Positions 13,141-38,688 of a stretch of DNA of 64,000 bases are shown here, piece by piece. Within the stretch, counting starts at the first letter, position 1. Each line of letters opens with the position of its first letter. Below the pieces are notes generated by a model. That model was not told the DNA's origin and did no database searches. It worked only from the letters and a program-made list of their open reading frames with translations. The position numbers and the translations under genes are program-made. Source of the stretch: Naegleria gruberi. Lineage: Eukaryota. The stretch is from assembly GCA_000004985.1 (NCBI GenBank), contig GG738850.1. The stretch is one strand, 5' to 3'.

Positions 13141-14126
13141 TTAGAACTTTCCTCCAAATTTGCCACCTCCTCTAGAAAATCCACCTCTGCCACCTCTATC
13201 GCCACCGAATCCACCACGGTCGCCACCGAAACCTCCACGGCCACCACCACGACCACCACCGAAACCACCACGGTCACCACCGAATCCACCACGACCACCT
13301 CTATCTCCACCAAATCCACCACGACCACCACCACGGCCACCTCTATCACCGAAACCACCTCTACCACCACCTCTGGATCCACCACGACCACCGAAACCTC
13401 CACGGCCTCCTCTTCCACCACGACCACCACCACCGGCCTTCTTTTCCTTTGGCATGAGTCTGTATGTGAATAAGGTCAGAAAAAAATTGAACGATTTACA
13501 AAAATACTTACGGATTCTTTGGTTCTGGAGGAATGAAACGATCCAATGGTAACAATCTCTTTGTATTCAGATAAGCTTCAGTACCCTTAGCAACGTTTCC
13601 TCTAAAGTTAGCATCCTTTTCCATAGAGAAATACTGTTGTTGTTGTGATTAGTTAAAACGATCAAATTTGAAACATACCACTTGGTTGATTGGTCCCAAA
13701 ACTTCCTTCAATTTACCGATTAAGGTCTTATCTTTAGTATATACATTGGAGTTACACAATGGAACGAGCTTTTCACCATCGAGAACAGACTTGAACAAGA
13801 ATTCTGTTCCAGCAGGCTTTTCAAATTGACCAGCAACTGTATTTCCACAACCAATAACAATTTACACATTTTGAAACATTTCACAAAATAATTTCATCAA
13901 CATCAACAATAAATTTGAACACATTTTCAAAGATTTGATACTAACACTTAATTTCTTCTGGTGGGAATTCTTCACCTCCTCTTCCACCGGAGCCACCAAA
14001 TCCACCTCTACCACCACCACGACCGCCTCCACGGCCACCACCTCTACCACCAAATCCACCTCTACCACCTCTATCACCACCAAATCCACCACGACCACCT
14101 CCACGAGAACCTCCTCTGAATGACAT
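13141..14126 (-). CDS. GAR1: H/ACA snoRNP protein GAR1 (about 259 aa); exons 13946..14126, 13679..13836, 13512..13633, 13141..13459; introns 102 nt, 45 nt, 52 nt
   Basis: N-terminal GAR domain MSFRGGSRGGGRGGFGG… Core …AGQFEKPAGTEFLFKSVLDGEKLVPLCNSNVYTKDKTLIGKLKEVLGPINQVYFSMEKDANFRGNVAKGTEAYLNTKRLLPLDRFIPPEPK aligns with yeast/human Gar1 (…GKVDEILGPLNEVFF…KLLP+ERFLP). C-terminal GAR domain (RGG/FGG repeats). Junctions use GTTAGT/GTATGT/GTAAGT donors and AG acceptors and keep reading phase. Confidence 0.8.
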
Positions 14127-14630
14127 TTTTTATATTTTTTTTGAAAACGAAAAATGAGAAATTTTTTCTCAAAGAACAAGCAATTTTTTGCTTCAAGAAG
14201 AATTTTGAGAAAAATTTAAAGAAGGCTTTGATTCAAGAAAACATCACATCAATATTATTATTATCATGAAGAATAATAGACAACGTATTGGAGAGTAGGT
14301 TTTTTTTTCAAAGTGAATCATCGGATGATGATGAATTATTGATGATGATTTGATGATAATTTTGATGATGAAATTTGTTGTTGTTGATGTGGTGATGATG
14401 AAATTATTCAGATCGAATATTAATTGGGTGGAAGCTGCTTTGGGAATTGGTAAGAATAGAAGAAAGGTTTGTTATTTCATCTATTTTATCTCTAATCTTT
14501 TCTTTAATAATATATTAAATAATAATATTTAATTATTAAATATAATATAACAATGAGAGGATAGACTGTCGGATTTGGAGCCTACAATAAGAAAACAAAA
14601 GAATATGAGGATGAATTCTACATTCGTGAA

Positions 14631-15299
14631 ATGTCCATCATTGATGCAGGTATTGGATGTGCCTTGTGGGATGCAGCCATCATCATGACTCGATACATTT
14701 ATGAATTTGGAGATTTGATATTCAAGGATCGTAAAGTAATGGAATTGGGAGCTGGTGTTGCATTGTGTGGAGTTTGTGCAGCTCGTTTTGCATCCACTTG
14801 TTATATTACTGATTTGCCTCACTTGATGGATAATATGAAATTCAATTTGAAGGCCAATTCTGATTTTGACGAAACTGATGAGAATACCAAATGTAAAACT
14901 GAGAAAATTAAGGAACAAAAGGAAAATATGCAAAAAAGTGGAAAAGTTGTAGAGCTTGATTGGTACAAGATTTATAATGAAATTCCAAAAGCTATGGAAC
15001 AAATTGCTAGAGGTGAAACACCAATTTTGGAAGTACCAGACAAGTGTGAAATTATTATTGGAAGTGAATTGACCTATACAGGAGATGAAAAGACAGTAGA
15101 GGCATTGATGAAAGTTATTGATACATTTATGGATGAGAAGGGAGTCTTTTTGGAAATTTTGAGTGATGATCGTGATGGTGTTTCATATTTTGTGGATCAA
15201 ATTACAAACCCTGAACGATACAATTATGTAATCAAGGTTTTCAAAGTTCATAGTAGATATATGGGTAATTTTGGAACTGGTCAAAGAGATGAAACATAG
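14631..15299 (+). CDS. class I SAM-dependent protein-lysine methyltransferase, METTL21/FAM86-like (Methyltransf_16)
   Basis: …GIGCALWDAAIIMTRYIYEFGDLIFKDRKVMELGAGVALCGVCAA…YITDL… matches the VWDAA…ELGAGTGLVG signature. The in-frame upstream sequence YEDEFYIRE also looks coding but is preceded by TAG. The start may lie in an upstream exon, with a possible GTAAGA donor at about 14449. Confidence 0.65.
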   Translation: MSIIDAGIGCALWDAAIIMTRYIYEFGDLIFKDRKVMELGAGVALCGVCAARFASTCYITDLPHLMDNMKFNLKANSDFDETDENTKCKTEKIKEQKENMQKSGKVVELDWYKIYNEIPKAMEQIARGETPILEVPDKCEIIIGSELTYTGDEKTVEALMKVIDTFMDEKGVFLEILSDDRDGVSYFVDQITNPERYNYVIKVFKVHSRYMGNFGTGQRDET

Positions 15300-15436
15300 T
15301 AAGTAGTAGAATGTTGATCATTTTTTTGCTAATCAACTATTCCAGTAAATTTTATCTTTTAACTAGAAAGGAAAATGAAAATGGTGAATTATTCCTCAAG
15401 ATGTGTGAGACTCTCCAAAATGATCAATAAATTTAT

Positions 15437-16140
15437 TTACATTCCTTGAGCCTTGAGAATGAGATTATCTTGATTGGCATCTTCGGCAATTTCTCTTAAC
15501 AATCTAATCAAGTTGATGTACTAAATTAAAGAAATGTTTTTAAAGAATGGAAATACATTTTTGGATATAATTTGAGGTTCTTTTTGATTACTTACATTTT
15601 CCTTAGATGTGACACCAACAACTGATGATTATTAATTTTAAATTTCAATATTCAATAATTAATGTCGTCAGCTCGTATTGGATCATGAAATTACTTACAT
15701 TTGGTATCTTCGTCCCATCCATTTCTTTGAATAGAGACTTGCTTTCCTTCCCAAAAGAATACAATGGCAGGACAAGCCTTTACATTGCATTCCAAAGCAA
15801 ATTGAATATTTTCTGTTGGATCCAAAATAAATATTTGAGCATAGCTCACAGAATCTCCCATACGAATTTCCTCAAAGCCTTATATTATTTAAATAAATTA
15901 TTAAATTCCATCATTGATTATTATTTTTAAATTCCAATAATATTAATGATTTTCATCCCATCATTAAATTCTCCAATTTATGGTTCGATATTAAGAAAAC
16001 CTACACTTTGCTAATCCTCTAGAAATTGGAGAGAATGGTTCAGCAAAACAACAAACGATCAATTTCATGTCTGATTTTGAGAGTAGCGAATCCCGAACTA
16101 AATCAGAGACATCCCACCGAATAGAAACACTTTCTGTCAT
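15437..16140 (-). CDS. thioredoxin-fold DIM1/TXNL4-like protein, multi-exon (about 4 exons, approximate structure)
   Basis: Exon …SVSYAQIFILDPTENIQFALECNVKACPAIVFFWEGKQVSIQRNGWDEDTK resembles DIM1 (…FAVIYLVDITEVPDFNKMYELYDPCTVMFFFRNKHIMIDLGTGNNNK). Flanking exons are MTESVSIRWDVSDLVRDSLLSKSDMKLIVCCF… and …FVGVTSKENYINLIRLLREIAEDANQ…GM*. The ORF track shows no long ORF here. Confidence 0.45.
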
Positions 16141-16255
16141 TTTTTATTATTAATTGAGGTTCTTTGAGATGAAAAGTGTACAATTTTGGCGCCAAAATTT
16201 TGGAATGAAGCGTTTTACTAAGGCCAAGTAAGGAATCGATTCGTTCTTAATGTAA

Positions 16256-16318
16256 TCGGGTGTGGTAGCATTCCAGACTGTCACTCTGGCGACCCGGGTT
16301 CAATTCCCGGCACTCGAG
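16256..16318 (+). tRNA. tRNA-Asp(GTC)-like element, only 63 nt, with most of the D-arm missing (possible tRNA pseudogene or tRNA-derived element)
   Basis: Acceptor TCGGGTG/CACTCGA (7 bp incl. G·U). Anticodon arm CCAGA-CTGTCAC-TCTGG with GTC at positions 34–36. T-arm CCGGG-TTCAATT-CCCGG. Discriminator G. Between the acceptor and anticodon stems only GTAGCATT is present, versus about 17 nt in a canonical tRNA. Confidence 0.35.
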
Positions 16319-16678
16319 ATTAATTTTTGACACTATCTACAATATTTAAATTTTAACTTTTTCATAATAGGAGGAATGATATATGATCTAGCTAATTTTC
16401 AATTATCAAAGTTTCAACTTTTAAAACCATCGAGAAAATAATCAAAGATTTGCCACTTTCATTTTCCGTAACAATATCACAACTCGAAACAATTCTATCC
16501 ACCAATCTTTAAATTGTCTCAATCCTACTCTCGATGTGCAAGTTCATTCAATAAAAAAACACAATTTCCAAGAAAACAACTATTATTGATTCAAGAGGGT
16601 ATAAGCTTTATGAAAAACAAATATAATAGGGTTATAATTTTGAAATATTCAATACATTTAGTTTAAACGTTTATTCAA

Positions 16679-19600
16679 TTAAACACTATAACTTAACATT
16701 TCCACTTGAGCGTTAGGATCCCCAACTACTGGAACCTCATAGACAGGACCCTTTCTTCTCTTACAACAATCCCACTTCAATTTTAATAAGACAACAATAA
16801 AAACAAAGACTGTACATAATAAACAAGTGAAACCAAGAATTGTTCCAAGAATTATACCCAAATATCGATCTTCTGCTATTGGTGTGGAAACCTTTACAAC
16901 CTTTTCAAGAATATTTTCAATAATCATAGTGCTTGTTGTAGAGTTGCATTTACAAGTTGCGGTAGAGTTGGAGCTCACCACAACAACACAGGATGGATCA
17001 ACTCCAACAGTGAAATTCTTAAATGTTCTACATAATAATTCTGAAGATCTATACACTTTTGTAATTACATTTTTGTTTGATTGAGTGGATTTAGTTGTGG
17101 AAATCAAAGAGTTGCTTGGATAATTCTTGACGTTAGATATTGTCATATTATAAGTGATTGGAGTCAATACATCTGCAGTGGATTCCAATAATTCAAAGAA
17201 TAAGACATTGCTTCTAAGAAACATGGTAGAAGATATTGATGTTTCAATCTTAGATGTGTTCACAGTGATGGTGCTATCACTTAACACCACCTTAGCGGCA
17301 ACAGTGTCAGAAATACCAAATATATCGTTGGAGGAAATTGAAATAAAGGAAATAGACTTTCTGTTAGATTTTTCGCTCAAGTAGAGAGGCATTTCTGGAG
17401 GCAACAAAACAACAGCACCTTCAAGTGGTGATGTTAATCTTGATTCAAAACCTGCTCTAAAGAGCTTGTTGGATGAAATTGAAGCAAAGACTGTCTTCAA
17501 TTGTAAATCTCTTTCACCAATGTAAATACCTCTCAACATTAAATTAGAAACACGTTTCAGCATTGTGTAGAGAGAACTGAGTTGGTCTGATGCTTGTAAC
17601 TGATTGTATGTAATATAATTGTAGATAGAATTCAAGATATTGGTCAATAACTTGTCAACTCCAAAAGGAACTCTAAGCTCCTTATTATATTCGCAGAATT
17701 TAAGTAAGGTGTTAACAATATCATAGGCCTTTTCCATACTATGTCCATCCAATTCATCATACTTTTCAATCAATGAATCCAAACCGTATGCTTGAAGAGT
17801 CAAGTAGGTTTCTGTAATAATTTCATATGGATTTCTAGCGTCGAATGTTTGAATAAATTCATCCATCAAGGCAACTCTGATTTCCTTATAGGCAGCAAAA
17901 TCTTCCTCTGTAACACTGCAATCTGCCTTTTCAAATCCAGATGCACATGAACATCTATTGGTTTCAGTAATAAGAGTTCCTCCATTTTGACAAACGAGCT
18001 TCACATCTCTTCTTCTTGCACCACTGGTAATCTTTGTTAGCATACCATCAGCGACTCTTGAAATTGTTGCAGAGTTGAAAACCATCTTGGCTGTATCACC
18101 ATCTTTGAGTGAATTTTGAATTGTACTGTAAGAGGCAACCTTCTTTTTAACTTCCACGACACTCTTTACAGCTGCAAGATCAATGGTAATGTCCTTTTTG
18201 ATTTCAGTGTAGGCACCAGTGGATTTATCTGTTATTCTAATGTATGTGGTGACGATCTTGTTAGAAAGTGGTGTGTATGAACATGGCAGCTTGGTTGAAT
18301 AGACTTCTCCGTTTTGATAAAGTGGAATATTAGCACCTGATTTGTCATCAATAAAACCATAGACCACTTGAAGGGTCTTTTGAGCGTTTTGACAATTGGT
18401 ACATGCGAATGAGAAACTAGTTTCTAAGGCAATACCTGATGAAGGAGAAACAGTGCATGGACAAGCTTGAGGTGGAGCAGCAATTTGGAAAGAGTATGAA
18501 TAGACAGCACTCAATCCATTTCTAATATCAGTTACCTTCAAGGACAAGACATAGGTAGCTCCATCTTCCAACGTTGCAGGATCAATAACAACAGAGTTGG
18601 ATAGTGTTGGGCTGGAAGTCATTTTAGAGATAACTGCTTCACCATTTGAAAGTATCTTTGAATTCAAAGTCCATTCTCTGCTAATATACTGATCAATTCC
18701 AACAGATTCTCCATTGGCAGTGACTGCAAGTTGCAAGTTAACAATATCTTGTTTCAAAATGACAGTCTTAGTTGGGACAACTGAAATAAGTGTAACGGTT
18801 GGAGGAACTTTCTTACTTTCAGGGAAAACAAAATCAAGAGTAGTTTGAACTGATCTTATTCCCTTAACAACCGAGAGGGTTAATTTAAGAGTTGGCATCG
18901 AGTTGTAAACTTTGAGGTCAGCTGAGGAAATTAAAGGTCTAACAGTTCTATCATTTGAATACGAGATAAGGGCAGAATCAATAGTTGTTCCACACCCAAC
19001 ATTATTAGTTGCATCGAAGCAAGACCATGTCCATGTTTCAGCCTCAGATGTGACATCAGGATCAACAAGATTGACAACAATAGTACCCATATCGGAAGAT
19101 ACTTCATCACTATATAAAATTAAGCTCAAAGGGCTTGGTCTAACAGTAATCTTAATGGTGTCGGATGCAGTCGAAAGAGGATTCACCACTGAAGTTACAG
19201 TGATTTTGAATTCATAGACGGCTTCAACCAGACCAGAAAAGTGGGTGACTGCCAAGTTGTTAAACTTGTCTGTTTCAAAAGTTGTAACTGGACCTGATAA
19301 TTGTTCCCAGACAATGTTTAATTGTTGGTTTGGATAGAAGCAACTTGGAAGCTCCAAATGCTTCTTAATGACAACAGGAGATTCATACTTGATAATAGTT
19401 CTGTCATTGAAACCAATAATGTATAGCACTGGAAGTGGAACGGCTGCCTTTGAAACACTCCAAATACTCATAGTACTGACCTTTCCAGATATTGAGCTTT
19501 CTACTTGAAGACCGAACTTGTACTCACCAGGATATTGCATTGCAATGTAATCAAGAGACAAAACTGAGGTGTTAGGCATAGAGACAGAAAGGAAATTACT

Positions 19601-22600
19601 TGGAGAAGAAACAATTGTCCAATAATATTTCAATGGCTTTCTATCTCCAGAATAAGAAGCAGAGGCATCCAGACTAAAGTTATCGCAAGTACCAATATTA
19701 TTCAGACCAGAAAAGACGACAACTGGTATTGCTGGATTATCGGCATTCAAAACATATACATCTTGTAAATCAGTACCACTGGCATCAAATACCAGTCTAT
19801 TCATTCCAACAACTGCTCCTGGCATTAAGGAATAATCATCTCCAAAGAGAATTGTAAATTCACCACTACCTCTATTTGTCCACATGCATACAGGACCAGT
19901 ACCAAACAAGGATAATTGGGAGCTTGAAATTAATCTTGAACAATCAACTTTTGATTGAGTATAAGAAGCAGGACCAATAACTTTGAAAACAATGCCATTA
20001 AACATGTCCAAGAATTTGGCAGGACCGAATATTTGAGTTGAACATTGTGAACCATAATAACCAGTTTGACACTTGTTACAATTGGATCCTTCCCAATACC
20101 CTTCAGTTGGACTAGCATAACAAGAGCATGTTCCATTATTGGTACAATCTCCATGGTTAGAACATGTTGTTGATTTTTCACAAAATGTTCCACAATCAGA
20201 ATTAGGATTGTAATAGTTGGTCTTGCAAACGGAACAGAACTTTCCGTCCCAATTACCATTGCAAACACATTGGAGAGCTGAATTACAATAGCCATGTTGG
20301 TTACAAGTAGTAGCAGGATCACACTTGAGCTTCTTACATCCTGTTAATTCAGTTTCATAGTCAAGTCTACAAACATCACAATAGGTTCCTTGCCAATAAC
20401 CATCTTGATTATTTTGATTGCAAGAACATGTGTTGTAATCTGTACAATTACCCTGTCCACTGCAGACACCAGATTGATCGAACCTAATATTATTACAAGT
20501 GTAATATTGACAATAATCACCAGAGTATCCTGTACTGCATTGGCATCCAGTGGAACTACAAATACCCTTTCCATTACATACTCTTGAGTCTGTTGAAACA
20601 ACAAATGTATTCTCCTTACTCAAACATTGAAGATATTGACATTGATTTCCAGTGACTTTAGAAAGAGCAGTTGGAGCTGGGCAATTACATACATTAGGTG
20701 ATGAACAGACACCTTTTCCACTACAAACATTGGAATCATTTGCAGGCTTTCCAAAACAAACTGGAATTTCACATGTGGCTCCAATGTATCCATTATTGCA
20801 AGAGCAAGTATTTGGAGCTGTGCAGGTTCCATTTGAGCTTGAACAAACTTTTGAATTATTAGCTAAAATTCCAAAACAGATTGGAATATCACAAGTAAAG
20901 CCAGTATATCCTGAAATGCATTGGCAAGAATCTGGAGCTGAACAAATCCCTTTTCCTGAACAAACTGAACTTGAATTTGACAGAATGTCATAACATTTTT
21001 TGTGTTCACAGGCCTCTCCTGCATAACCTTGTTTGCAGGTGCAATTGTTTTGACCTACACAATAGCCATTACCTGAACAAGCTTGAGGGTTCAAGCTTGC
21101 GATTCCGTAGCAAGTAAAAGTACCTGGAATGATAAACTCACAATTATCTCCATAAAATCCTGCGAGACAACTGCAATTATTGACAGATACACATGCACCT
21201 CTGGATGAGCAAACAGAAGAAGAATTGAACATGGTTCCATTGCAGGTATGATGTTGGCAGTCATTACCAGTGTAGTTCTTGTTGCAAGAACAAACACCAG
21301 ATAGACAAATACCATTAAAGGAACAAACTGATGGATCTTCGGCTGTTTTACCATTGCATTTCACATTTTGGCAATCATTTCCGTATGTTGAGGAATTACA
21401 ATTACAAACTCCTGAAATGCATTGACCTGCATAAGAACAAACAGATGGATCTTCAGCAGTCTTTCCATTACATTTGATAAATTGACAGTCATTACCATAG
21501 TTGGAGGAAGAGCAGGTACAAGCTCCTTGATAACAAGTGCCATTGGAGGAACAAACACTTGGATCGACTGCTGTTTTTCCATTACATTTCATGAGTTGAC
21601 AGTCAGATCCGTAAGTGGTGGCGTTACAGCTACATGTTCCAGAAATACATTGACCTGCATAAGAACAAACAGAGGGATCTTCAGCAGTTTTACCATTACA
21701 TTTGATAAATTGGCAATCATTACCGTAGTTAGTTGAAGAACAGGTACAAACACCTGAGGAGCATGTTCCATTCGATGAACATACTGTTGCGTTTTCTGCT
21801 GTTTTTCCATTACATTTCAAGAATTGACAATCGTTACCATATGTAGTTGAATTACAATTACACACTCCAGAAATACATTGACCAGATGAGGAGCAAACAG
21901 TGGAATCATTAATCATCTTTCCATTGCACTTCAACATTTCACATTGGTTACCATAAACAGTTGAGTTTACACAGGAACAAACGTCCTGAGCAATGCAAGA
22001 ACCCATTCCACTGCAAACACTTTGACTACCGGCAGAAATTCCAAAACATGTAAAGAGACTTCCTGAACAATCATTTCCAAAGAATCCTGTATTGCAAGTG
22101 CAATTATCAGTTGAAATGCAAGAACCATGGCCAGAGCAAACTAGAGTTTCATTGCTCATGACACCACTACATTTCCAAACTTCACAATCAGATCCATAAA
22201 AACCAGAAGAACAATTACAAGTGCCAGTTAATGCATTACAATCACCACGTGAATGACAAACTGAAGAATCATTGGCAAACTTTCCATTACACTTGGAAAA
22301 CTCGCATTCATTACCGTAGAAATCAGATCTGCAAGCACAAGTGTCCAATCTGATGCAATCACCTCTGGAATTACAAACTGAAGAATCATTGGCAAGCTTT
22401 CCAAAGCAAGATGGCTTATCACAGAGAGGACCTGTCCATCCTGGCTCACATTGACACTTATCAGTGCCAACACAAGAGCCATGTACACAACCTGGATTAC
22501 AAGACAAACTACAATTTGCAGTTATGATACCATCTTCACATTGACACAAATTATTGCCAGCACAAATACCATGACCACTGCAATAATTCAAAGCGCTGCA

Positions 22601-23723
22601 ATCAAATTGATCACCAACATAGAGAGACGCAGTTGTAAAAGCAGCATTTTCACAAGCATACTTGTAGGCAAGTTTTCTTCTTGGATGGGAGCAAACATTT
22701 GTTCCCTTTCCACCCATTCCATGATAGGCACCTGTTTGACTTCCACCAATACCAATGTAGGCATCAAGTTTTCCACTCTCAACACAAGAGGCATTTGAAG
22801 AGGTTACAACACCAAATCTCACTTTCAAATAATTACTATTTCCCATGTTGAATCCAATTAATTTGTTGGCACAATATTTGGCAGATGTGTAATCTGGAGC
22901 TAGAGAATAGAAATTTCTAGCAGTTCTCAAAGATCCTGGAACTACTCTGGATTGATAAGTTTCATCAGAGAACGCTTCTAACAATGACTTTTTGTTAACT
23001 GTAAAAACAGCAGTATTGGTCTTGTTAGACTCGACAATGAATCCGTCATGATCCAAAACAAAAGCTGTCTTAACTGTTGTCATTTTCAAAGAGTGAGCAA
23101 CATGTTTAGTAAAAGCCAAAGTCTTCAAATTAGTATATTGATATCCAATACTTCCAACTGTGGCGTTATTGGTCCAATATTGACTAGAATAGGAGAAGGT
23201 TGCATCAGATCCATCCTTCAAATCCAAAGCAAGAGCCCAAGCACCTATATTTTAACACAAAGGAGCCTTGTTAAATATGAAGAAGGAATAATAACATACC
23301 CTTTGATGAAACATCAAACAAGCACTTGGTTTGATAAGTAACCTTATTGTTATTTCCATCCAAAAGGAACAAGTAGAACAAGTTTCCAGAGATACTTGAC
23401 ACTGACTCTCCCTTACTCAAATAATAATCTCTGATGGCACCACAACTTACAGCAGCGGTATCAGCAGAAGATCCATTAGAGACTTTCAATTTGAGTGTAG
23501 TAAAAGAATCAATCATCCACTGACCCAAATTATCGGAAGGAGAAGAAGCAGCAATTATAGAACAGTTAAATAAAACAATTAATGCAATAATGGCCATAAT
23601 CATGGAGGCGCTTAATAAATTGGAGAATGATTTCTTCAACCTATTGAAACCACCATCATCATCACAGCGTTGAACTTTGTTGCTCAAATGAGGACACGTA
23701 AAATGTCCCCTCATTGAATTCAT
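16679..23723 (-). CDS. giant type I membrane protein (about 2329 aa): signal peptide, about 30 tenascin-type EGF-like repeats, about 900-aa extracellular module with a degenerate GPS-like Cys motif, one C-terminal TM helix, short cytoplasmic tail; exon 1 23300..23723, 55-nt intron 23245..23299 (AAGG|GTATGT…ATATAG), exon 2 16679..23244
   Basis: Exon 1 has a hydrophobic signal (MIMAIIALIVLFNCSIIAASS). Exon 2 has dozens of CxxxxxCxCxxGYxGxxC units. Near the C-terminus there is …CRTFKNFTVGVDPSCVVVVSSNSTATCKCNSTTST… and the TM segment LGIILGTILGFTCLLCTVFVFIVVLL, then KLKWDCCKRRKGPVYEV…. The splice is phase 1 on both sides and removes an in-frame stop. Confidence 0.8.
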
Positions 23724-27674: not shown

Positions 27675-27684
27675 TCATAAAATT

Positions 27685-30600
27685 TTAATTGAATTCATTA
27701 TTGATTTTTCTCTTTCTTGAGAATATTTCTGCATCTCTGGAAACAAATGGAAAAACAGCAAACCAAATCATACACAATAAACAACTAGAAACCAAACACC
27801 ACCCAAGACCTAAACTGAATGCAATCTCATTATTATCACTAACAATACTATCGTCATCATTGAAAGAGAATGGGAATCTGAATATGGTCTCAGTAATCAT
27901 GGTAGAAATCAACATGGCCGAGAGAAGCAGAGGGGCAAAGTATTTGACTAAAAAGCACCAAACCCACAAAACTGTCTGTGTTGCCAAATCAGTGCATTTG
28001 TAAACAAATGTATTCTCAGTGAAAATATTTTCCTCTCCATCTTCATTCTCCTCAGTAGCATACTTTTGAATAATCTTTTGTTTTTTAGCAAGAATGTGGT
28101 TTTTAAATCTCTCAACAGAGAAGAAGGCCGCTCCTTTCCAATATTTCTTTGGGTTGTTTTTCAGTTTTCTGAATGCATGTGTGAGATTAGGGCAGTGAAT
28201 CAAATATTTGAAAAATACCACAAAGTGGGTGGCCATGATTTTACAACGTTTTGTAAATCTTGCACACACAGAGGTGTCTCCCTCCAAAACCATATCAACT
28301 ATTCCCTCCTCTGATGGCTCTATCATTTGAATCATTTCTTCTTGCCATTTTTCATGGTTAGCTGCCAAAGCTTCATTAATCTTGTTAACGATATCCTTCT
28401 CTTCCAATTCACTGCATTGACTTTCAAACATTTTACTTCCAAATGCAAAATATCCAACAACTATACACTCAGCCAATCCCATCAAAACTAGACAATAATT
28501 TGAAATGTAGTGATCCACAATTCTAATCAAGTAGTATCCATTATTAAGAGTGAACGGCAATCCTAAAATGAAGCCAACAAGGCAAACAATAAAAGTTGCC
28601 ACGTTTCTGTTAGTCAACATTTTGTAAGTGAATGGCATGTCTGGTACATTGTCCTCATGAAGCAAATCTTGCTTCTCTGGAGGAAGATTAATAGTCTCCT
28701 TCTTAATAGCCACAGGAGAAGATGAAATCACATTGGATGAATCGATGGTATCCTCCAGTGGTACTTCATGTTGAGCATCAACTGCTTGTTCTGTCATTTC
28801 ATGTTCATTGTGGAAATTCTGCATGTAAATCTTTTGAACATACTTCCAACGTTGAACTTTGAGATTCCACTGCATTGAGAAGTGATCCATCAGGGCACTT
28901 GTTACACATTCCACACAAGCAAAGGCACTATCTAATCCCATTGAAAATATAGTGGCAATCAGTAAGAGAGCAGAAAAGTGAGGAACTGGCAAATAGGAAA
29001 CAGCTTGGAAGTAGACAATAAAAGCCAATCCCAATCCTGAACGAACTGTATCACTAGTAAAGAGCTTGTCAAAATCTGCAAGAGCTGTTTTCAAATAATA
29101 TTATATGAATATTAAGGTAAAAATTAATATTAAAAAAGGTTTGTGAAAAAACTTACCATTCTCACCAAACTTGTCATGAGCCATAACACCCAAAATTGAA
29201 AAGATAGTAAAGCCACTCAAAAAGGCAATAAAGCAATTGGCTGCCACCACAACAACTGAAGCAATGATAATATTTGATTTTCTACTCAAATATGAAGAAT
29301 AGGTAGAGTTGGTTCCATTTCCAACACCAACACTGAAGAATACCTGACCAGCAGCCGCCAACCAAATTTCAGTTTTCAGCAAGACACTGAAATCTGGTTT
29401 GAAAAAGTAGTACAAACCAGAGCTACTTCCCACTTCGAACAATATAGTTCTCAACAAGTAAATGGCCAATAAACAAATTGGCAAAGGTACTGAAATGAAA
29501 ACTACAAATTTGATACTGCTCACACCCTTAAAAACGCACAAAAAGTTGAAAAATACCACAACCAGTAAGCCCAATAAAATTGGCATGGAAACAAAGTCTA
29601 CTCCATAAAAATTCGATGGATAATTGCTTATCAATGTAGTTGGTCCAGTGGATTTTCTCAAAACTACAGAATTGAAGAACTCTTCAGCCTTCCCAATCCA
29701 TGGTAATTCAGCTTGGAATAAGTTTACAAAATAAACACAAGTCCAACTCAGAATTACATTATAATAACTCAAAATTAATAAACTTCCAAAAACTGTCATG
29801 GCCAAACCAACTCCACAAGCTCTTCTATTCCACTTTGAAATGGATAATATGGAAGATCTTCTCGACATGACACCAAGTGAAAATTCCAACAAGGTCAATG
29901 GCAATCCCAAAACAACCAAACAGAAAATGTAAGGAATGAGAAATCCACCACCTCCATACGTATAAACAAGATATGGAAAACGAATCAAATCTCCCAAACC
30001 AACACTCGAACCAATGGCTGCAAATAAAAAGCTAATAACTGATCCAAAATGTTGTCTCTTATCATCTTCCAATCCATTCGATCCATCATCCACAAATTTG
30101 AAACATTTCTCATTGGCAATACTTGCCAAATCCAAAGAACTCGTCTCTGAAACATTATCTGCATAATAATCCATACTAGAAGTGGCAGATAAACTTTCCT
30201 CTTCAGTTGTTGTACCTTCCTCTGATTCGAATGCTTGCTCTTCACTCTCAACTTTTGGACCCAAATCTGAATGTCTATGAATGTGATGAGAAATCTTTGG
30301 CTTGTGATTTGGTTTTCTATGGTGATGTCCATGATGACGATGATGAGAAAGTCCCCTTGTGGCATTAAGTTGTTGTTGCTGATGATGACCACGAAGATTA
30401 TTACGAGAACTTCTTCGAGAGGAATCTCTCTTCACTTCTTCCATCATTCCAGCCTGATGTTCCCTCTCAACATCTTCCATCATGATTGTTTCCTCCAACT
30501 CTTCTGGATGATGATTATGAGTGCCTTGTTGTTCTTCTCCTTCTCCAATCATTCCTCTCTTATCAAAGGCTAGAGATGATAAAGTTGTTGGAGCAGCTCC

Positions 30601-31077: not shown

Positions 31078-31324
31078 AAGAGTAACAATAAGAGAGTTCC
31101 TTACGAACAGTTGAGGGTAAGAGAGCAGATTGATAAGGAGATTGATCTGTATTCATCTTCTTCAATCTTGGATGATTCCTTGGTAATCCATTCCTTATTA
31201 CGGACGAGGATTTCATCAGGATTCAATCTGGTAGCCTTGATTTGGGCAGTGTAGTGATTCAGATTTTTCATAATAAAGGGTATGTACAATTTAATAATGT
31301 GAGTAAAATCAATGTGTGTGAAAA

Positions 31325-32170: not shown

Positions 32171-32787
32171 TTTTTTGATTGTTGTTTTTCAAAGAGAATG
32201 GATAATACAATCTTTAAGAGCAAGAGTAGAAATACTCCACCAAGTGTTGATGGACTTTTTAAAGTGCGCTTCTAAGAAATAATAAGCATGCTCGTTGAAA
32301 CACGCAATAGAAACAAGCGGGCGTATTAAAGCAACTTGATTGAACCTCATTGAAAATATGACCGTTTCATGATTTTTAATATTTTTTTAATTAAAAAATT
32401 ATATTGTGAATTTTATTGAAAAAAAATAACCCGATGTTTACAGGGAGCGCCTCATGAGTCTGTGAACTGTGCTCCTCTGCGATATCAAGTACTGCTTGCC
32501 ATAGATGACGAAGAATATTACTCCCCAAAGAACAGTAATAATTTACTGGAGAAATGAACCAGCTAGAAGAACCATTCATGATCTATAAGGCTCCAGTAAT
32601 CTGACTCAATGATCGTGAAGCCTCCTTTGCCCATTCATGATGCTTCCTTTTCTCTCCCTTGTTCCCTACTAGTAACATTTCCAAGCATTTCGGGCACATA
32701 ATCATCATCATCTTCCTTGTGTCTATCATCAGTGATGATAATCATACGCAAATGTGCACTTACCAATTCTGAAAACACGCTCAAAAA

Positions 32788-35414
32788 ATGAAAGAAGACA
32801 CAACAGAACCCACCGCTGCTGGACGGTCATCATTAATTAATCAAACCATAGTTGGCTCGTGGAGAAGGTTGCTTTCAACAATGTCGTTGGGAGGGAACAA
32901 TAAACAATCTACTACTACTACTACTACAACAACAATACCGAATGAGAGTAATAGTAACAATATGATTACTTCTCCACTTACAGTACAGGAAGATTCTGTG
33001 GAGCACTGCTCTGCAAGTGACTCATTGGCTTCTTCAGTGAGTACTTTTCCTACAGTATCCTCCTCCTCCTCGGTAGGAGGAATTGAAGGAACAATAATAT
33101 CATCATCAGCTACTTTGAATAATAATAATAATCAACAAGGAGGGGGATCTGTTGGTGGTGTTACCACTAGTTCTGGTTTAGTAGATCATTCAGCCGCTGT
33201 TATTAGTAATAGTCAGCCATTTAATGTTCCATCATCATCATCAGAATACCATCACTTTAATAACAATGTTTTTAAAAGTAGTAGTTATTGTAATGAGAGC
33301 GTGGGATATCCATTACATGACCACTACGGCCCAGTTAATACTAATGCATCGTCGTCTGTGGAAGGAAACGTAAGGAAGAAACCAAATGCTATCATGATGA
33401 GGAGAAGAAGATCTCCAAAGAGAAAATCGAATGCCATGATGGATATATCAGATGATGAGGAACAAACATCACCACCAACAAATTCAACAACAACTGCCAG
33501 AAATCAACCAACAACTAGTCATTCACCACAGGGTCAACGTACCAACAATATGAGAACTAGATTGGAACCACTCTTTAGACCTAATATTGGCAATCATCAA
33601 CCAGTACAACATCAACAACTTTTATCTACTTCACCAAATAGTCAACAACCATCAACCTCTCCAAAGAGTGACGAAGACACAATGATGAATGATCCAAGCA
33701 GTTACTTTTCGGATACAGAAATGTACGTCAAGAAGAAGGATGTTTTGGAATATTCAAAACCAATCCCAGCACACTTTTCTGGTGCTAACACTGCTGCAAC
33801 TCCATTCCAAAAAGTATTTCAAAAATCAACAAATTTCAAACCAGCAACACCATGTCCATCACCGACAAATCAGACCGAGTTTCCATCATCACACAATTTT
33901 ACTTCTTCAGGAAGAAGAAACAATGATATTCCAACAGCTTTTCATAATTTAGGGCTTGTTGGTAAATTGAAGGAGTTTTGTGCATCAATACCCTCATATT
34001 CAATGACATCACCAGTTATCTATTCACCTTTGGATTTATCTGCTAGTTTGGATTCTCTGGATACTGTCTACACATGTTGTGGTAATAATCTTCTTGGTCA
34101 ATTGGGTTGTGGTGATAAGCAGAAAAAGACTCTTGCTTTTCAGAGAAAAGCCAAAGGTTCAGTCAAATTTATTGCAGGAGGAAATGGGTTCGTTCTCATA
34201 GCAACCGTTAATAATGAGCTGTACAGTTGTGGAGATAATTCATATGGTCAATGTGGAGTTGGTCCTATTACTAAAAAGCATTGCCCAAATTTTATGAAAT
34301 CTGTTTGGGATAAGAAATTGGATATTAAGAAAATTGCTTGTGGTTATCATCACAGCATGATTTTGACAACCTGCGGAAAGGTATATAGTTGTGGAGCTGG
34401 ATGTGCAGGTGCTCTAGGTAGGTTTTTTTAATTGATTATTTATCAATATGTTTCTTATACTAATTAATAGGGCTTGGAGATTTTTTAAATAGAAATACTT
34501 TCCAGAGAGTGAATATTATATTTTTTGGAGATGAAGTTGATAATATTGTATGTGGAATGCATTATTCAGCCATCATTTCAAAGAGTGGCAGACTGTTTGT
34601 CACTGGTGTAAATATTGCAGGCGAATTGGGTGTAGGAGATTATGTGAATAGAAATTTATTTACATATGTGAGTGAGATACCTCTCCAAGCTAACCCTCAA
34701 GTTGATTTGATTTCTTTCAGACCAGGATTTTCAATAATTTACACAAAATACAAACAGGCTCTTATTGCTGGAAGGACGTTGGGAAATAGATATGCCTATG
34801 TGAATGGTTTTCCTAACAATGTAAAAAAGATAATTTTCGAAGGTTTACACACTATTATACTGTGTGAAAATGGTATTCTATACAAGTGTAATGATGATGA
34901 TGTAGAATTTGACTCCTTTCAAATGCCATTTTTCAATTTTAAACAGGTTCCAATACCCTCTCGAGTTGTTGAAATTTACAATGGTATTGGATATGCTGTT
35001 GCAGTTACGGAAGATAACAAATTCTATGCTATTGGGGATAAGTCTTGGATATTTGCTGTCTTGAATGGAAAAGATAAGACTGATGAACATCCAAATCTTG
35101 ATGAGTTTACAAAGATTAGAGTTGATAATTTCCATAATTCGGTAGCATGTGGAGGAACTTTCACTTACTATTACACCAAATCAAATAAGATTGTGAATAA
35201 TAATTCCCTAATTGATAGAATTCAACCACTCGATCCATACCAAGACATTGTCATCAAGTTTGATACCAATAAGAGAGTCAAAACATGGTCTTTAACAAGT
35301 GTAGTTTCTGATTATATATCAAATCAAAAGAAAAAGAGAAAAGTGGAAAGTAGTGATAGTGATAGTGATAGTGATAGAGGTGATTTGGAAGATCTTGAGG
35401 AATTTAGTAATTAG
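32788..35414 (+). CDS. RCC1-repeat protein with long low-complexity (T/S/N/Q-rich) N-terminal region; exon 1 32788..34417, 92-nt intron 34418..34509 (G|GTAGGT…AGAGAG|TG), exon 2 34510..35414
   Basis: RCC1-like repeats …CGNNLLGQLGCGD…, …SCGDNSYGQCGVG…, …SCGAGCAGALG…, …VTGVNIAGELGVGD…. The phase-1 splice joins the two ORFs in frame. C-terminus has an (SD)n tract. Confidence 0.7.
35354..35378 (+). repeat. (GATAGT)n hexanucleotide microsatellite encoding (SD)n inside the RCC1-repeat gene
   Basis: agtgatagtgatagtgatagtgatag read directly. Confidence 0.6.
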
Positions 35415-35471
35415 CATTACTGAGAAAATATACTACAAGTGTAAATATTTAAAGATTAAAATAAAAGAGAT

Positions 35472-36950: not shown

Positions 36951-37729
36951 TTCTGTTTAATTTAACATTATTGTTAGTATTATGATGAATTGATTGCATA
37001 TGTGAGAGTATCAAGTTCATGCAGTATTATCAAGTGCAATGCAATTTAAATACAATTAGTGTTCGGGATGAAATTTAAAGAATGAACAAGATGATTAATA
37101 CATTCACTATTACACGAACAATCAGCTACATACCTATCGTATTTGCAGAATAATTCATATTTCAATCAATATATTAATAACCAATAACAACAATTTTTTT
37201 CAATCATAATTGTTAATCATCATCATCCGATATTAAATATTTAAAAGTATAAAAATAACATCATATCCATCGCACCATACATTTCAAAAACCATCGGATC
37301 ATCAGTAAAATTAGACGATGCAAAGAAGCAGCGAAAATTGTTTATCGTACAAGATCGAAAAAAATTTATCATCATCAAACCATGAATAAAAAAATCGCAA
37401 AAAGATACAGTACCTTCTTTGGTGTATTTTTTTTAACGCTTTTCTTGTTTGTCCGCTGATTTGTTGGTGCAAATATTGGCTGTGAATCTGGCATGAAGAT
37501 TACAAAAAGTTAAAGAGGCAAAGTCGGAAAGGAAAGGATCCGTTACAAGATGTGAAACTGTAGTGTCGGATTTTTTGGATTTGATTGGATGTAGAGTACC
37601 GTTCGAGTCAATTGAAACCGAGTTAGTGATCTATGTCAAATTTTAACAAATTGTAAAACAATGTGAAAATCAGCTTTTTAAATTGATTATTACTAAAATT
37701 TGTATTATTTTGTTATTTCTTATAATTAT

Positions 37730-38688
37730 TTACATTAAAAGACACTTTTCGTCCTTTCCACCTGATTTTTTAACTTTTGCAAAAACTTGAGAGGCACAAT
37801 CATTAAAGATTTCTTCCACATTCATTCTAGTCTTGGCACTTGCTTCATAGAATTGAATTCCTCCAAAACGTTGACATAGTTCAGTAGATTCCTCTTTTGT
37901 AACAGCTCTGTCACTTTCCAAATCTGATTTATTTGCAACCAGAATAATGGCAATGCTATTCTTGGCATTGGAATATTCAGATTCCTCAAGTCCTTTAGTT
38001 TGTAAAATGTGATCAATAAATTGGTAAGCTTCTTCAAAACTGGAACGATTTGTAATACTGTAAACAATTATGTATCCTTCTCCTTGTCTGATATACTATT
38101 TGTTTCGAATATGTAAGAATATGTAAAAAAACAGGGAAATTAATAAAAAACAATAAATTGAAAGAATTTTTCATGAAAATTACCTGATCTCTCAAAGTGT
38201 GAAATTCTCTATATTGTTGTTGTTATTGTTGTTGTGATTTAAATTATGAAAATTAAAGAAGAAAGGTCATGGTTTCATATCCGATAATATTGTCCAATTA
38301 GTTTCATCACATGATGATGAATTTAAAACTTACTCCTGACCAGCAGTATCCAAAATATCCAAAATTACTTCCTTTTTATCAATTATAGCATCTTTACGAT
38401 AACTTTCATTATTCGAAACTTTATCCTTCCATTAAATTACTTACGAATCTTCCAAGGTTGGGTCATAATGTTCAACAAAAACATTTTGAATCTTTGCAAA
38501 ATTAAATTATTTTCTAATTGATGAATGATAACTAACCAACTGAACAACATTCGTATAAATTATTATTCGAAACTTACTTGTACAATTAGAGCACTTTTCC
38601 CCACACCACCCGAACCGAAGACTACGATTTTAACTTCTTCCTTGCTTTTTTCCTTCTTCTTCTTTTCTGCCTTTTTGACAGGTGGCAT
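37730..38688 (-). CDS. Ras-family small GTPase, Rap/Ras-like (205 aa) with Lys-rich N-terminal extension and C-terminal CAAX box (CLLM); 5 exons 38578..38688, 38445..38491, 38334..38402, 38184..38208 (25-nt micro-exon), 37730..38095; introns 86, 42, 125, 88 nt
   Basis: Spliced product MPPVKKAEKKKKEKSKEEVKIVVFGSGGVGKSALIVQ|IQNVFVEHYDPTLEDS|YRKDAIIDKKEVILDILDTAGQE|EFHTLRDQ|YIRQGEGYIIVYSITNRSSFEE…ILVANKSDLE…EASAKTRMNVEEIF…KCLLM aligns along its whole length with Rap1/Ras (G1 GSGGVGKS, switch I YDPTIEDSY, G3 DTAGQE, G4 NKxD, G5 SAK). All junctions are GTAAGT/GTAATT…AG and keep phase. Total CDS is 618 nt. Confidence 0.8.

What the first reader, a model, noticed from the sequence alone, without database searches (positions are those of the whole stretch)
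13141..38688. Ultrashort introns (42–55 nt) and a 25-nt micro-exon; several genes are invisible to ORF-based calling
Hand-resolved junctions give introns of 42 nt (Rap-like gene, 38403..38444), 45 nt and 52 nt (GAR1), 49 nt (KCTD locus), 55 nt (giant EGF gene), 58 nt (63099 gene) and 64 nt (TPR–MYND). They also give a 25-nt exon (38184..38208, AGAATTTCACACTTTGAGAGATCAG) encoding the EEFHTLRDQ switch-II segment of the Rap-like GTPase. All use GTAAGT-like donors (GTAAGT/GTATGT/GTTAGT/GTAATT) and AG acceptors in AT-rich context. Whole genes (the DIM1-like gene at 15437..16140, profilin-like, GAR1, Rap) have no long ORF. The ORF track also reports M for GTG/TTG codons, so many apparent starts are wrong.
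Basis: seen in the sequence. Interest (0 to 1): 0.5.

Follow-up and report, generated by a model that had tools for sequence, protein, structure and literature searches.

The report
Short introns in annotated Naegleria genes

Summary
Observation confirmed; it is already known biology. Eight proteins encoded in the window are 100% identical to RefSeq proteins of Naegleria gruberi NEG-M (707,703-bp scaffold). So do the DIM1-like and profilin-like models.

The 45- and 52-nt GAR1 introns, the 42-nt Rap intron and both micro-exons (25 nt; 26 nt in the DIM1-like gene) are also supported by environmental Naegleria-like contigs. There the exons are conserved, introns diverge or are exactly absent, and GT/AG boundaries sit where predicted.

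Eighteen resolved introns span 42–126 nt (median 73.5), so 42–64 nt is the lower half of the local norm.

Corrections:
- The "58-nt" intron is 53 nt.
- The profilin-like gene has a 218-codon exon.
- The KCTD locus has two further frame breaks, and at least one is not an intron.

Extras:
- GAR1 and the KCTD locus are missing from the public protein set.
- The annotated Rap model lacks a Leu/Phe that all 12 homologues keep. Its first intron contains CAG|TTG|GTTAGT, a possible 3-nt exon that needs RNA-seq.

No transcript data could be reached.

The parts
37730..38688 (-). Rap-like Ras-family GTPase gene, 5 exons, 205 aa, CAAX end CLLM
   Evidence: Spliced product is in frame. It is 100% identical over its full length to the annotated N. 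gruberi Ras-family small GTPase P0001. Pfam Ras 167 bits.
38403..38444 (-). 42-nt intron (GTAAGT..AAG), phase 2 in the Ser codon of LEDS|YRK
   Evidence: read-through gives a stop at codon 2. Relative L006 has a 42-nt intron at the same position with divergent interior. The N. fowleri homologue P0003 has an intron at the same position and phase (170 nt).
38184..38208 (-). 25-nt micro-exon encoding (E)EFHTLRDQ of switch II
   Evidence: DTAGQEEF..LRDQY is invariant or nearly so in 13 aligned homologues. In relative L006 the downstream intron is absent, so this exon is fused to the last exon.
38492..38577 (-). Rap intron 1 (86 nt) as annotated. It leaves a one-residue gap (missing Leu/Phe) relative to all homologues.
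   Evidence: In W. magna and in L006 the intron lies after the Leu codon.
38537..38539 (-). Candidate 3-nt exon TTG (Leu) flanked by CAG| and |GTTAGT. It would split intron 1 into 38 + 45 nt. Hypothesis only.
   Evidence: An AG-Leu/Phe-GT site is expected 0.007 times in the 13 allowed positions. Only 3 AG-NNN-GT sites in 128 kb score as well. Both site scores are second lowest among real sites.
38209..38333 (-). Rap intron 3, 125 nt (GTAAGT..TAG)
   Evidence: The relative has a 42-nt intron 2 nt away.
38096..38183 (-). Rap intron 4, 88 nt (GTAATT..TAG)
   Evidence: Exactly absent in relative L006 (an 88-column gap).
13141..14126 (-). GAR1 (H/ACA snoRNP) gene, 4 exons, 259 aa. Not found in the public N. 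gruberi protein set.
   Evidence: Pfam Gar1 52.6 bits. PDB GAR1 hits E 3e-29 and 2e-24. No exact or near-exact annotated protein.
13634..13678 (-). GAR1 45-nt intron (GTATGT..CAG)
   Evidence: Exactly these 45 nt are absent from the related contig L003, whose ORF reads GPVNKVYFSVEK across the site.
13460..13511 (-). GAR1 52-nt intron (GTAAGT..CAG)
   Evidence: In the relative the exon flanks are conserved up to GTAAGT and from AG|ACTCATGCC. The relative's intron is longer and unalignable.
13837..13945 (-). GAR1 first intron, 109 nt (GTTAGT..CAG)
15437..16140 (-). DIM1/TXNL4B-like gene, 4 exons, 141 aa; introns 126, 77, 75 nt
   Evidence: Exact match to XP_002681558.1. TXNL4B structures E 7e-5.
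15596..15621 (-). Second micro-exon, 26 nt, encoding FVGVTSKEN
   Evidence: Aligns to KFVGSFKTKQDF of human TXNL4B. It is 26 nt long with flanking AG and GT in relative L005.
23245..23299 (-). 55-nt intron (GTATGT..TAG) of the giant EGF-repeat gene
   Evidence: frame restored over 2,329 codons. My full model is not an exact match to any public protein, so this rests on structure only.
3808..3871 (-). 64-nt intron (GTAAGT..TAG) of the TPR-MYND gene
   Evidence: TPR and zf-MYND domains lie on either side. My full model is not an exact match.
49651..49699 (+). 49-nt intron-like segment (GTAAGT..TTGCAG) in the KCTD/BTB_2 locus
   Evidence: Structure only. The locus is unannotated and has two further frame breaks.
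63563..63615 (+). Intron of the gene starting at 63099: 53 nt (GTAAAT..TAG), not 58 nt
55570..55645 (+). 76-nt intron of the profilin-like gene (exons 55538-55569 and 55646-56300)
   Evidence: Exact match to XP_002681427.1. Pfam Profilin 51.7 bits, N-terminal half only.
34418..34470 (+).
   Evidence: The spliced 857-aa product equals XP_002681421.1.
50738..50857 (+). 120-nt intron of the gene at 50411-51325
   Evidence: The product equals XP_002681425.1.
29085..29156 (-). 72-nt (or 81-nt, acceptor at 29076) intron of a large membrane-protein gene
   Evidence: Not verified against annotation.

Best explanation
The window is nuclear DNA of Naegleria gruberi strain NEG-M. The segments are ordinary U2-type GT-AG spliceosomal introns of a compact, AT-rich protist genome.

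Inferred mechanism:
- Each short intron (42-126 nt here) is recognised as a unit, with the donor paired to U1 snRNA and a nearby branch site and AG acceptor (intron definition).
- Under that mode the length of the neighbouring exon matters little, so exons of 25-26 nt between two short introns are spliced normally.
- There is little or no polypyrimidine tract. The information lies mainly in the strong GTAAGT-like donor, the AG, and the AT-rich interior.

Because exons are split this way, small genes show no single long ORF.

Shown here: the junctions, their identity with the published annotation for five genes, and their agreement with homologues and related genomes.

Inferred, not shown: actual removal in RNA and the mode of recognition.
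For: Organism:
- Eight window-encoded proteins match N. gruberi RefSeq/GenBank entries exactly.
- Window GC of 30-38% fits the published 33% (PMC8296547, Table 2, read).

Junctions:
- Ten introns in five genes reproduce RefSeq products exactly: Rap 4, DIM1-like 3, profilin-like 1, RCC1-like 1, 50411 gene 1.
- GAR1 aligns without junction gaps to solved yeast and human GAR1.
- The DIM1-like micro-exon aligns to TXNL4B.
- The Rap switch-II motif is restored.

Comparative evidence:
- In three loci aligned to environmental relatives, exons are 70-77% identical. The few exon gap columns lie mostly in the GAR1 glycine-arginine repeats and at the alignment end.
- Introns are 51-60% identical in aligned columns and mostly gaps.
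- The 45-nt GAR1 intron and the 88-nt Rap intron are exactly absent in relatives.
- The 42-nt intron is conserved in position and length.
- The 26-nt exon is conserved in length.

Other:
- All termini are GT..AG, and no donor is U12-like.
- Read-through meets stops or shifts the frame.
Against: - No transcript evidence was accessible. No RNA-derived copies of the spliced proteins exist in the protein collection, and two scans of metagenome contigs found nothing.
- No clear branch-point motif emerged from 22 introns.
- The GTAAGT count in the window is not above chance.
- The EGF, TPR-MYND, 63099-gene and KCTD junctions rest on frame logic alone. My full EGF and TPR-MYND models do not equal any public protein.
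- The annotated Rap exon 1/2 junction leaves a one-residue gap against all homologues.
Confidence: 0.93

Rival explanations
1. The annotated (and the reader's) Rap model is wrong at its first junction. Intron 1 is really two introns of 38 and 45 nt around a 3-nt exon TTG (38539-38537). This restores the Leu of ALIVQ-L-IQNVF in helix alpha-1.
For: - All 12 aligned homologues have Leu or Phe there, and the model alone has a gap exactly at the junction.
- The close relative encodes ALIVQL, with Leu as the last codon of a 16-nt micro-exon.
- In W. magna and the relative the intron lies after Leu, the position that intron '1b' would occupy.
- CAG|TTG|GTTAGT lies where both sub-introns would exceed 35 nt.
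- Expected number of AG-Leu/Phe-GT sites in the 13 allowed positions: 0.007 from window rates and 9e-4 in simulation.
- Only 3 AG-NNN-GT sites in 128 kb score as well, and this is the only one with a Leu/Phe codon.
- GTTAGT is a donor used by GAR1 intron 1.
- Exons of 1-3 nt are documented elsewhere and are often missed by annotation (PMC12940212, read; PMC8831610 and PMC6314551, abstracts listed).
Against: - A 38-nt intron would be shorter than any verified here (minimum 42 nt).
- Both site scores are second lowest among 22 real sites.
- The idea was formed after seeing the gap.
- A simple 3-nt deletion at the exon end also explains the data.
- The Leu-containing protein is in no public collection.
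- No RNA data were available.
Confidence: 0.3
2. Some of the claimed 'introns' are not introns but frame disruptions of a decaying gene or assembly errors. This concerns the KCTD locus in particular.
For: - The KCTD locus needs two frame changes besides the 49-nt intron.
- The first break lies inside the conserved BTB_2 stretch. Both frames match a homologue there (TTSIQTL.. then ..FFT..GRIFIDRDG). A 56-nt 'intron' there would delete conserved residues.
- No annotated N. gruberi protein covers the locus.
Against: - The 49-nt segment itself has a perfect GTAAGT donor, a T-rich tract and a CAG acceptor, and it restores an open frame.
- For the other cited genes the junctions are confirmed by annotation identity or by comparison with relatives.
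- The frame breaks could not be checked in an independent assembly.
Confidence: 0.6
3. The short segments are mostly retained in mature mRNA, giving truncated products. An example is Rap ending at the TAA inside the 42-nt segment.
For: Intron retention is the commonest form of alternative splicing in non-animal eukaryotes, and it was detected in N. gruberi RNA-seq (PMC6142364, read).
Against: - Retention of the 42-nt segment would stop Rap after about 53 residues, before switch II and the NKxD and SAK motifs.
- The downstream exons are nevertheless conserved in frame with a relative (72% nucleotide identity) and with 12 homologues.
- The same holds for GAR1 and the DIM1-like gene.
Confidence: 0.03

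Closest known systems
Published gene models of Naegleria gruberi NEG-M (JGI/RefSeq annotation; genome paper Fritz-Laylin et al. 2010, Cell, recalled from memory and cited in PMC3488318)
   Same: The products of the Rap-like, DIM1-like (XP_002681558.1), profilin-like (XP_002681427.1), RCC1-like (XP_002681421.1) and 50411-51325 (XP_002681425.1) genes are identical to my hand-spliced models. This includes the 42-nt intron and the 25- and 26-nt exons.
   Different: GAR1 and the KCTD locus have no counterpart in the public protein set. My EGF and TPR-MYND models differ somewhere from whatever is annotated. The published mean intron length is 203 bp (PMC8296547, Table 2), well above the median of 73.5 nt in this window.
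Intron-definition splicing of short introns in compact eukaryotes such as fungi, Dictyostelium and nematodes (own knowledge); human 'ultra-short' introns under 66 nt (PMC4463651, abstract)
   Same: GT-AG termini, a strong donor consensus, lengths of tens of nucleotides, AT-rich interiors, and a weak or absent polypyrimidine tract.
   Different: The mode of recognition was not tested here. In humans such lengths are rare exceptions, whereas here they are the norm.
Micro-exons (30 nt or less) of animals and plants, often missed or misannotated (PMC7821500, PMC8831610, abstracts)
   Same: Internal coding exons of 25 and 26 nt (16 nt in a relative) encode conserved protein segments. They are invisible to ORF scans.
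   Different: Here they are constitutive-looking parts of housekeeping genes, flanked by introns under 130 nt, and two of them are correctly annotated. Nothing suggests regulated inclusion as in animal neurons.
One-nucleotide exon of Fusarium CYP621A genes (PMC12940212)
   Same: The inference has the same logic as for the candidate 3-nt exon. A conserved motif cannot be assembled from the annotated exons, and an AG-N-GT candidate lies in the intron of a short-intron organism.
   Different: The Fusarium case is supported by 24 orthologues and SRA reads. The Naegleria candidate rests on one locus and statistics only.

Membership tests
U2-type (major) spliceosomal intron | GT at the 5' end and AG at the 3' end | tested here: met
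   All 18 window introns and 4 in relative L006.
U2-type (major) spliceosomal intron | Extended donor complementary to the U1 snRNA 5' end (GTAAGT-like) | tested here: met
   GTAAGT in 12 of 22 introns; the rest differ from it at one position, or two for GTAATT.
U2-type (major) spliceosomal intron | Branch-point motif at a short distance upstream of the acceptor | tested here: inconclusive
   YTNAY-like pentamers occur in most introns, but at variable distances. They are absent from three.
U2-type (major) spliceosomal intron | Removal restores a continuous, homologous coding sequence | tested here: met
   Read-through gives stops or frameshifts.
U2-type (major) spliceosomal intron | Excision observed in RNA | not testable with these tools
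   No transcript data were reachable. RNA-seq exists as PRJEB23822 (PMC6142364).
U12-type (minor) intron | Donor [AG]TATCCTT | tested here: not met
   No donor among the 16 tested has this motif.
Micro-exon (internal exon of 30 nt or less) | Short internal exon bounded by an acceptor and a donor, in frame with its neighbours | tested here: met
   38184-38208 (25 nt) and 15596-15621 (26 nt). Both are part of exact RefSeq products.
Micro-exon (internal exon of 30 nt or less) | Conservation of the exon or its coding content in relatives | tested here: met
   The 26-nt exon is conserved in length in L005. The content of the 25-nt exon is fused to the next exon in L006.
Naegleria gruberi NEG-M nuclear genome | Encoded proteins identical to the reference proteome | tested here: met
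   Eight exact matches, all on one 707,703-bp contig.
Ras/Rap small GTPase | Ras-family domain with P-loop, DTAGQE, NKxD and SAK motifs and a C-terminal CAAX | tested here: met
   Pfam Ras 167 bits against a cut-off of 21.6. Motifs are visible in alignment A1. One residue of helix alpha-1 is missing in the annotated model.
Gar1 (H/ACA snoRNP) | Gar1/Naf1 RNA-binding core flanked by glycine-arginine-rich domains | tested here: met
   Pfam Gar1 52.6 bits against a cut-off of 29.3, profile positions 2-92 of 92. PDB GAR1 E 3e-29.
DIM1 / TXNL4 | Match to the DIM1 profile above the curated threshold | tested here: not met
   Pfam DIM1 18.1 bits against a cut-off of 27. phmmer to TXNL4B structures gives E 7e-5 over residues 19-123. 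It is a thioredoxin-fold, DIM1-like relative, and membership is not established.
Profilin | Full-length match to the profilin domain | tested here: inconclusive
   Pfam Profilin 51.7 bits against a cut-off of 25, but only profile positions 2-55 of 127. The protein is 228 aa.
KCTD (BTB_2) protein gene | Intact ORF encoding a BTB_2 domain | tested here: not met
   BTB_2 scores 53.5 bits only on a frameshift-corrected conceptual translation. The genomic sequence needs a frame change inside the domain.

The most novel reading that the evidence does not exclude
Intron 1 of the Rap-like gene holds a 3-nt exon (TTG, 38539-38537) between a 38-nt and a 45-nt intron. The RefSeq protein would then be one residue short. 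Naegleria would splice exons as small as one codon by intron definition. As far as I know this would be the first such case described in Heterolobosea/Discoba. With the 16-, 25- and 26-nt exons seen here and in relatives, it would suggest that tiny exons are a regular and under-annotated feature of these genomes.
Probability: 0.3. Interest if true: 0.4.

Novelty: already known. Interest (0 to 1): 0.15.

Why it matters
As stated, the finding matters little. The genome was published in 2010, short GT-AG introns are a known property of it, and the key junctions are already in RefSeq.

Its practical value is for method.

Three small points may be useful to curators of Naegleria annotation:
- A conserved H/ACA snoRNP gene (GAR1) appears to be missing from the public protein set.
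- A BTB/KCTD locus looks like a frameshifted pseudogene or an assembly error.
- The Rap-like model may lack a one-codon exon.

Each can be settled with existing RNA-seq.

Tried and rejected
1. GTAAGT hexamer enrichment as evidence of introns: 28 observed against 22 +/- 4.9 expected, so not informative.

2. The 58-nt intron in the 63099 gene: no GT..AG pair of that length joins the two frames. The only short solution is 53 nt.

3. Resolving the first KCTD frame break as a 56-nt intron (GTATTC..AAG): rejected. It would delete IQTLKNCYP.., and TTSIQTL is conserved in homologue P0129 and fits KCTD structures. The second break could be a 40- or 46-nt intron with a GTGATT donor; this is unresolved.

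4. Canonical alternatives for the Rap exon 1/2 junction that would restore the missing Leu: none exists apart from the 3-nt exon (reading).

5. Search for transcript evidence:
- Exact look-up of spliced proteins in contig collections found nothing for Rap.
- No RNA-derived members exist in the protein clusters.
- A scan for the spliced exon 1/2 junction in JGI metagenome contigs gave 0 hits.
- A second scan for more relatives of Rap exon 2 gave 0 hits, although L006 should have matched. That collection is therefore evidently incomplete for this purpose.

6. Independent assemblies of the KCTD locus: none found.

7. The Fritz-Laylin 2010 paper is not held in the library, so genome-wide intron-length medians are not cited.

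8. U12-type introns were considered and rejected.

9. Five single-exon coordinates guessed (proteins 6-10) gave no match. The start codons were not checked, so this says nothing.

Full report
**What the window is.** Hand-splicing the Rap-like gene on the minus strand gives a 205-residue in-frame product. A search of the public protein collection returned a protein of the same length, 100% identical over 100% of the query. It is named 'ras family small GTPase [Naegleria gruberi]' and lies on a 707,703-bp contig. Seven more window-encoded proteins are exact matches to N. gruberi RefSeq/GenBank entries on the same contig:
- DIM1-like, XP_002681558.1
- profilin-like, XP_002681427.1
- alanine aminotransferase, XP_002681562.1
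- a gamma-glutamylcyclotransferase-like protein, XP_002681561.1
- a 1,190-aa protein, XP_002681420.1
- an RCC1-repeat protein, XP_002681421.1
- XP_002681425.1

The window GC content of 30-38% fits the published 33% for the 41-Mb NEG-M genome. That genome has 15,708 genes and 1.7 exons per gene (PMC8296547, Table 2). The window is therefore nuclear DNA of the heterolobosean amoeba N. gruberi, not of a dictyostelid. The genome was published and annotated in 2010 (reference taken from PMC3488318; the paper itself is not held).

**Check of the observation.** I re-derived every junction from the sequence.

Rap-like gene (minus strand):
- Exons are 38688-38578, 38491-38445, 38402-38334, 38208-38184 and 38095-37730.
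- Introns are 86, 42, 125 and 88 nt.

GAR1 (minus strand):
- Exons are 14126-13946, 13836-13679, 13633-13512 and 13459-13141.
- Introns are 109, 45 and 52 nt.

DIM1-like gene (minus strand):
- Exons are 16140-16005, 15878-15699, 15621-15596 and 15520-15437.
- Introns are 126, 77 and 75 nt.

Other introns:
- giant EGF gene, 55 nt (23299-23245)
- TPR-MYND gene, 64 nt (3871-3808)
- KCTD locus, 49 nt (49651-49699)

The '58-nt' intron of the gene starting at 63099 could not be reproduced. The only short GT..AG solution is 53 nt (63563-63615).

I resolved four further introns:
- profilin-like gene, 76 nt
- RCC1-like gene, 53 nt
- a membrane-protein gene, 72 or 81 nt
- the 50411 gene, 120 nt

Across 18 window introns the range is 42-126 nt and the median is 73.5 nt. 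Intron GC is 16-29%. All are GT..AG. Counting the 4 introns of relative L006 as well (22 in all), GTAAGT is the donor in 12 and the acceptors are TAG, CAG or AAG. Read-through meets a stop in 15 of 16 tested introns, and the remaining one shifts the frame.

**Is it more than chance?** The donor hexamer alone is not enriched in the window: 28 observed against 22 +/- 4.9 expected. That is as expected at about one intron per 3.5 kb, so motif counts prove nothing. The evidence comes from three other sources.

1. Identity with annotation. Ten introns in five genes give products identical to RefSeq proteins.

2. Homology across junctions.
- Spliced GAR1 aligns with yeast and human GAR1 from solved H/ACA and telomerase structures, with no gap at any junction (E 3e-29 and 2e-24).
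- The 26-nt exon of the DIM1-like gene encodes FVGVTSKEN, which aligns with KFVGSFKTKQDF of human TXNL4B (E 7e-5).
- The 25-nt exon supplies the EEF..LRDQ part of switch II. This segment is invariant or nearly so in 13 aligned Ras-family proteins.

3. Comparison with environmental relatives found through the protein searches.
- An ENA contig syntenic with the GAR1/methyltransferase/DIM1-like region (L003/L005) lacks exactly the 45 nt of GAR1 intron 2. It keeps the donor and acceptor positions of the other two introns, with different lengths and unalignable interiors.
- The same contig keeps the 26-nt DIM1-like exon at 26 nt, with flanking AG and GT.
- A JGI contig carrying the Rap orthologue (L006) assembles into a 206-residue protein with introns of 45, 78, 42 and 42 nt and a 16-nt micro-exon.
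- L006 has a 42-nt intron at the same codon position as the N. gruberi 42-nt intron. It has no intron after the block that is the 25-nt exon in N. gruberi; the 88 nt are an exact gap.
- The N. fowleri homologue also has an intron at the position and phase of the 42-nt intron (170 nt).
- Over the three loci, exons are 70-77% identical. The few exon gap columns lie mostly in the GAR1 repeats and at the alignment end. Introns are 51-60% identical in the aligned columns and mostly gaps.

**What the genes are.**
- Ras, 167 bits
- Gar1, 52.6 bits
- profilin, 51.7 bits, but only the N-terminal half of the domain in a 228-aa protein
- zf-MYND plus TPR
- BTB_2, 53.5 bits, on a frameshift-corrected translation

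The DIM1 profile is below threshold (18.1 against 27 bits). 'DIM1-like thioredoxin-fold protein' is therefore the safe name.

The statement that whole genes have no long ORF needs qualifying:
- It is right for the DIM1-like gene (longest open stretch 62 codons).
- It is partly right for Rap (121-codon last exon without a start) and for GAR1 (a 104-codon ATG ORF in the true frame appears).
- It is wrong for the profilin-like gene, whose second exon is 655 nt.

**How it most likely works.** These are ordinary major-spliceosome introns. The strong GTAAGT-type donor pairs with U1 snRNA. The acceptor is a bare AG in AT-rich sequence with little polypyrimidine tract. Introns of 42-126 nt are short enough to be recognised across the intron. 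Exon length is then not limiting, which explains why exons of 16-26 nt sit happily between short introns. This mechanism is inferred from general knowledge of short-intron eukaryotes. I could not find a consistent branch-site motif, and no RNA data were reachable. RNA-seq for the species exists as PRJEB23822 (PMC6142364) and would settle every junction.

**Where the finding needs correction: the KCTD locus.** Besides the clean 49-nt intron, the coding signal changes frame near 49233 and near 49790.
- The first break lies inside the BTB_2 domain. The upstream frame encodes TTSIQTLKNCYP and the downstream frame encodes NSGLESELKGNFFTSMF...GRIFIDRDG.
- Both parts match a homologue (P0129: TTSIQTLTRVPRSMLGIMFSGQFFTH...GRIFIDRDG) and KCTD16 structures.
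- It is therefore a frameshift in coding sequence, not an intron. A 56-nt GT..AG 'solution' would delete conserved residues.
- The second break could be a 40- or 46-nt intron with a weak GTGATT donor. This is unresolved.
- No N. gruberi protein covers the locus. The run of GenBank identifiers for plus-strand genes (EFC48677 to EFC48681) leaves no slot for it.
- A pseudogene or an assembly error is likely. I could not find an independent assembly.

**Things the annotation may have missed.**

1. GAR1. Neither the full product, nor a truncated variant, nor any near-identical protein is in the collection. Yet the gene is intact, conserved in a relative, and clearly GAR1.

2. The Rap exon 1/2 junction. 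The annotated product reads ALIVQ-IQNVF, whereas all 12 aligned homologues read ALIVQ[L/F]IQ. The close relative also encodes ALIVQL. In W. magna and in the relative the intron lies after the Leu codon.
- Inside the 86-nt N. gruberi intron lies ...TGTTGTTCAG|TTG|GTTAGT.... A 3-nt exon there (38539-38537), between introns of 38 and 45 nt, restores the Leu and puts the second intron at the conserved position.
- Site scores are at the low end of real sites: acceptor 2.9 and donor 7.3 bits, each second lowest of 22.
- The coincidence is nevertheless rare. An AG-Leu/Phe-GT site is expected 0.007 times in the 13 allowed positions from window-wide rates and 9e-4 in simulation.
- Only three AG-NNN-GT sites in 128 kb reach these scores.
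- Exons of 1-3 nt are documented elsewhere. A 1-nt exon in Fusarium was inferred by the same logic and confirmed with SRA reads (PMC12940212).
- Against the idea: 38 nt is shorter than any verified intron here, the hypothesis is post hoc, a 3-nt deletion is a simpler alternative, and the Leu-containing protein is in no database.
- I put it at about 0.3.

**Comparison with what is known, and verdict.** The finding is a correct manual re-discovery of known gene structure in a published genome. It is a member of the class 'U2-type GT-AG introns': termini, donor consensus and ORF restoration were tested and met, the branch site is inconclusive, and RNA was not testable. It is not U12-type. The micro-exons fit the usual definition (30 nt or less) but are constitutive-looking and mostly already annotated. 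Lengths of 42-64 nt are the lower half of the local distribution, not outliers. Novelty: already known. Interest is low (0.15). The only parts that go beyond the annotation are the apparently unannotated GAR1, the broken KCTD locus and the possible one-codon exon.

Noticed in passing
window 38537-38539 (minus strand), within Rap intron 1 (38492-38577): CAG|TTG|GTTAGT sits inside the annotated 86-nt intron. A 3-nt exon here would restore the Leu/Phe that all 12 homologues have and the RefSeq model lacks. Expected by chance about 0.007 or less.
   Followed up: partly
window 13141-14126 (minus strand): An intact, conserved GAR1 (H/ACA snoRNP) gene with three introns has no exact or near-identical counterpart among public N. 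gruberi proteins. It appears to be unannotated.
   Followed up: partly
window 48877-50170 (plus strand): A BTB_2/KCTD-like locus has a clean 49-nt intron plus two frame breaks, near 49233 and 49790. The first lies inside conserved domain sequence, so it is a frameshift (pseudogene or assembly error). The second might be a 40- or 46-nt intron with a GTGATT donor. The locus is not annotated.
   Followed up: partly
window 15596-15621 (minus strand): A second micro-exon of 26 nt in the DIM1-like gene, conserved at 26 nt in an environmental relative. The Rap orthologue of another relative (L006 2269-2284) needs a 16-nt micro-exon.
   Followed up: yes
window 16256-16318 (plus strand): A 63-nt tRNA-Asp(GUC)-like sequence scores 43.4 bits on the Rfam tRNA model but has a D-arm cut to 3 nt in place of 11. 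ARAGORN does not call it. It is probably a tRNA pseudogene, lying between the DIM1-like and EGF genes. A normal tRNA-Arg(TCT) is at 44805-44878.
   Followed up: partly
whole window; examples at 38408-38419, 38562-38573, 40746-40757, 41034-41045, 44784-44795: The palindrome TTCGAA occurs 54 times against 16 +/- 3.7 expected and accounts for 6.6% of all CpGs, in both coding and non-coding DNA. The longer motif GTTTCGAATAAT occurs 4 times exactly and 10 times with at most 1 mismatch, against 0.67 expected. Two copies lie in Rap introns 1 and 2, two are intergenic, and one is 10 nt upstream of tRNA-Arg. The flanks are not similar, so it is a short motif, not a repeat element. Its function is unknown.
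   Followed up: partly
L003/L005 (ENA ERZ2098899), L004 (Logan SRR29240419), L006 (JGI 3300002220), L007/L008 (ERR1078381): Environmental metagenomes contain Naegleria-like contigs. Some are about 70-77% identical in exons and syntenic with this window, showing intron presence/absence differences (the GAR1 45-nt and Rap 88-nt introns). One dataset (ERR1078381) encodes an alanine aminotransferase identical to the N. gruberi protein.
   Followed up: partly
window 16679-23723 and 2776-4930 (minus strand): My single-intron models of the giant EGF-repeat gene (2,329 aa) and the TPR-MYND gene (696 aa) are not exact matches to any public protein. The annotated models must differ in start codon or in additional introns.
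   Followed up: no
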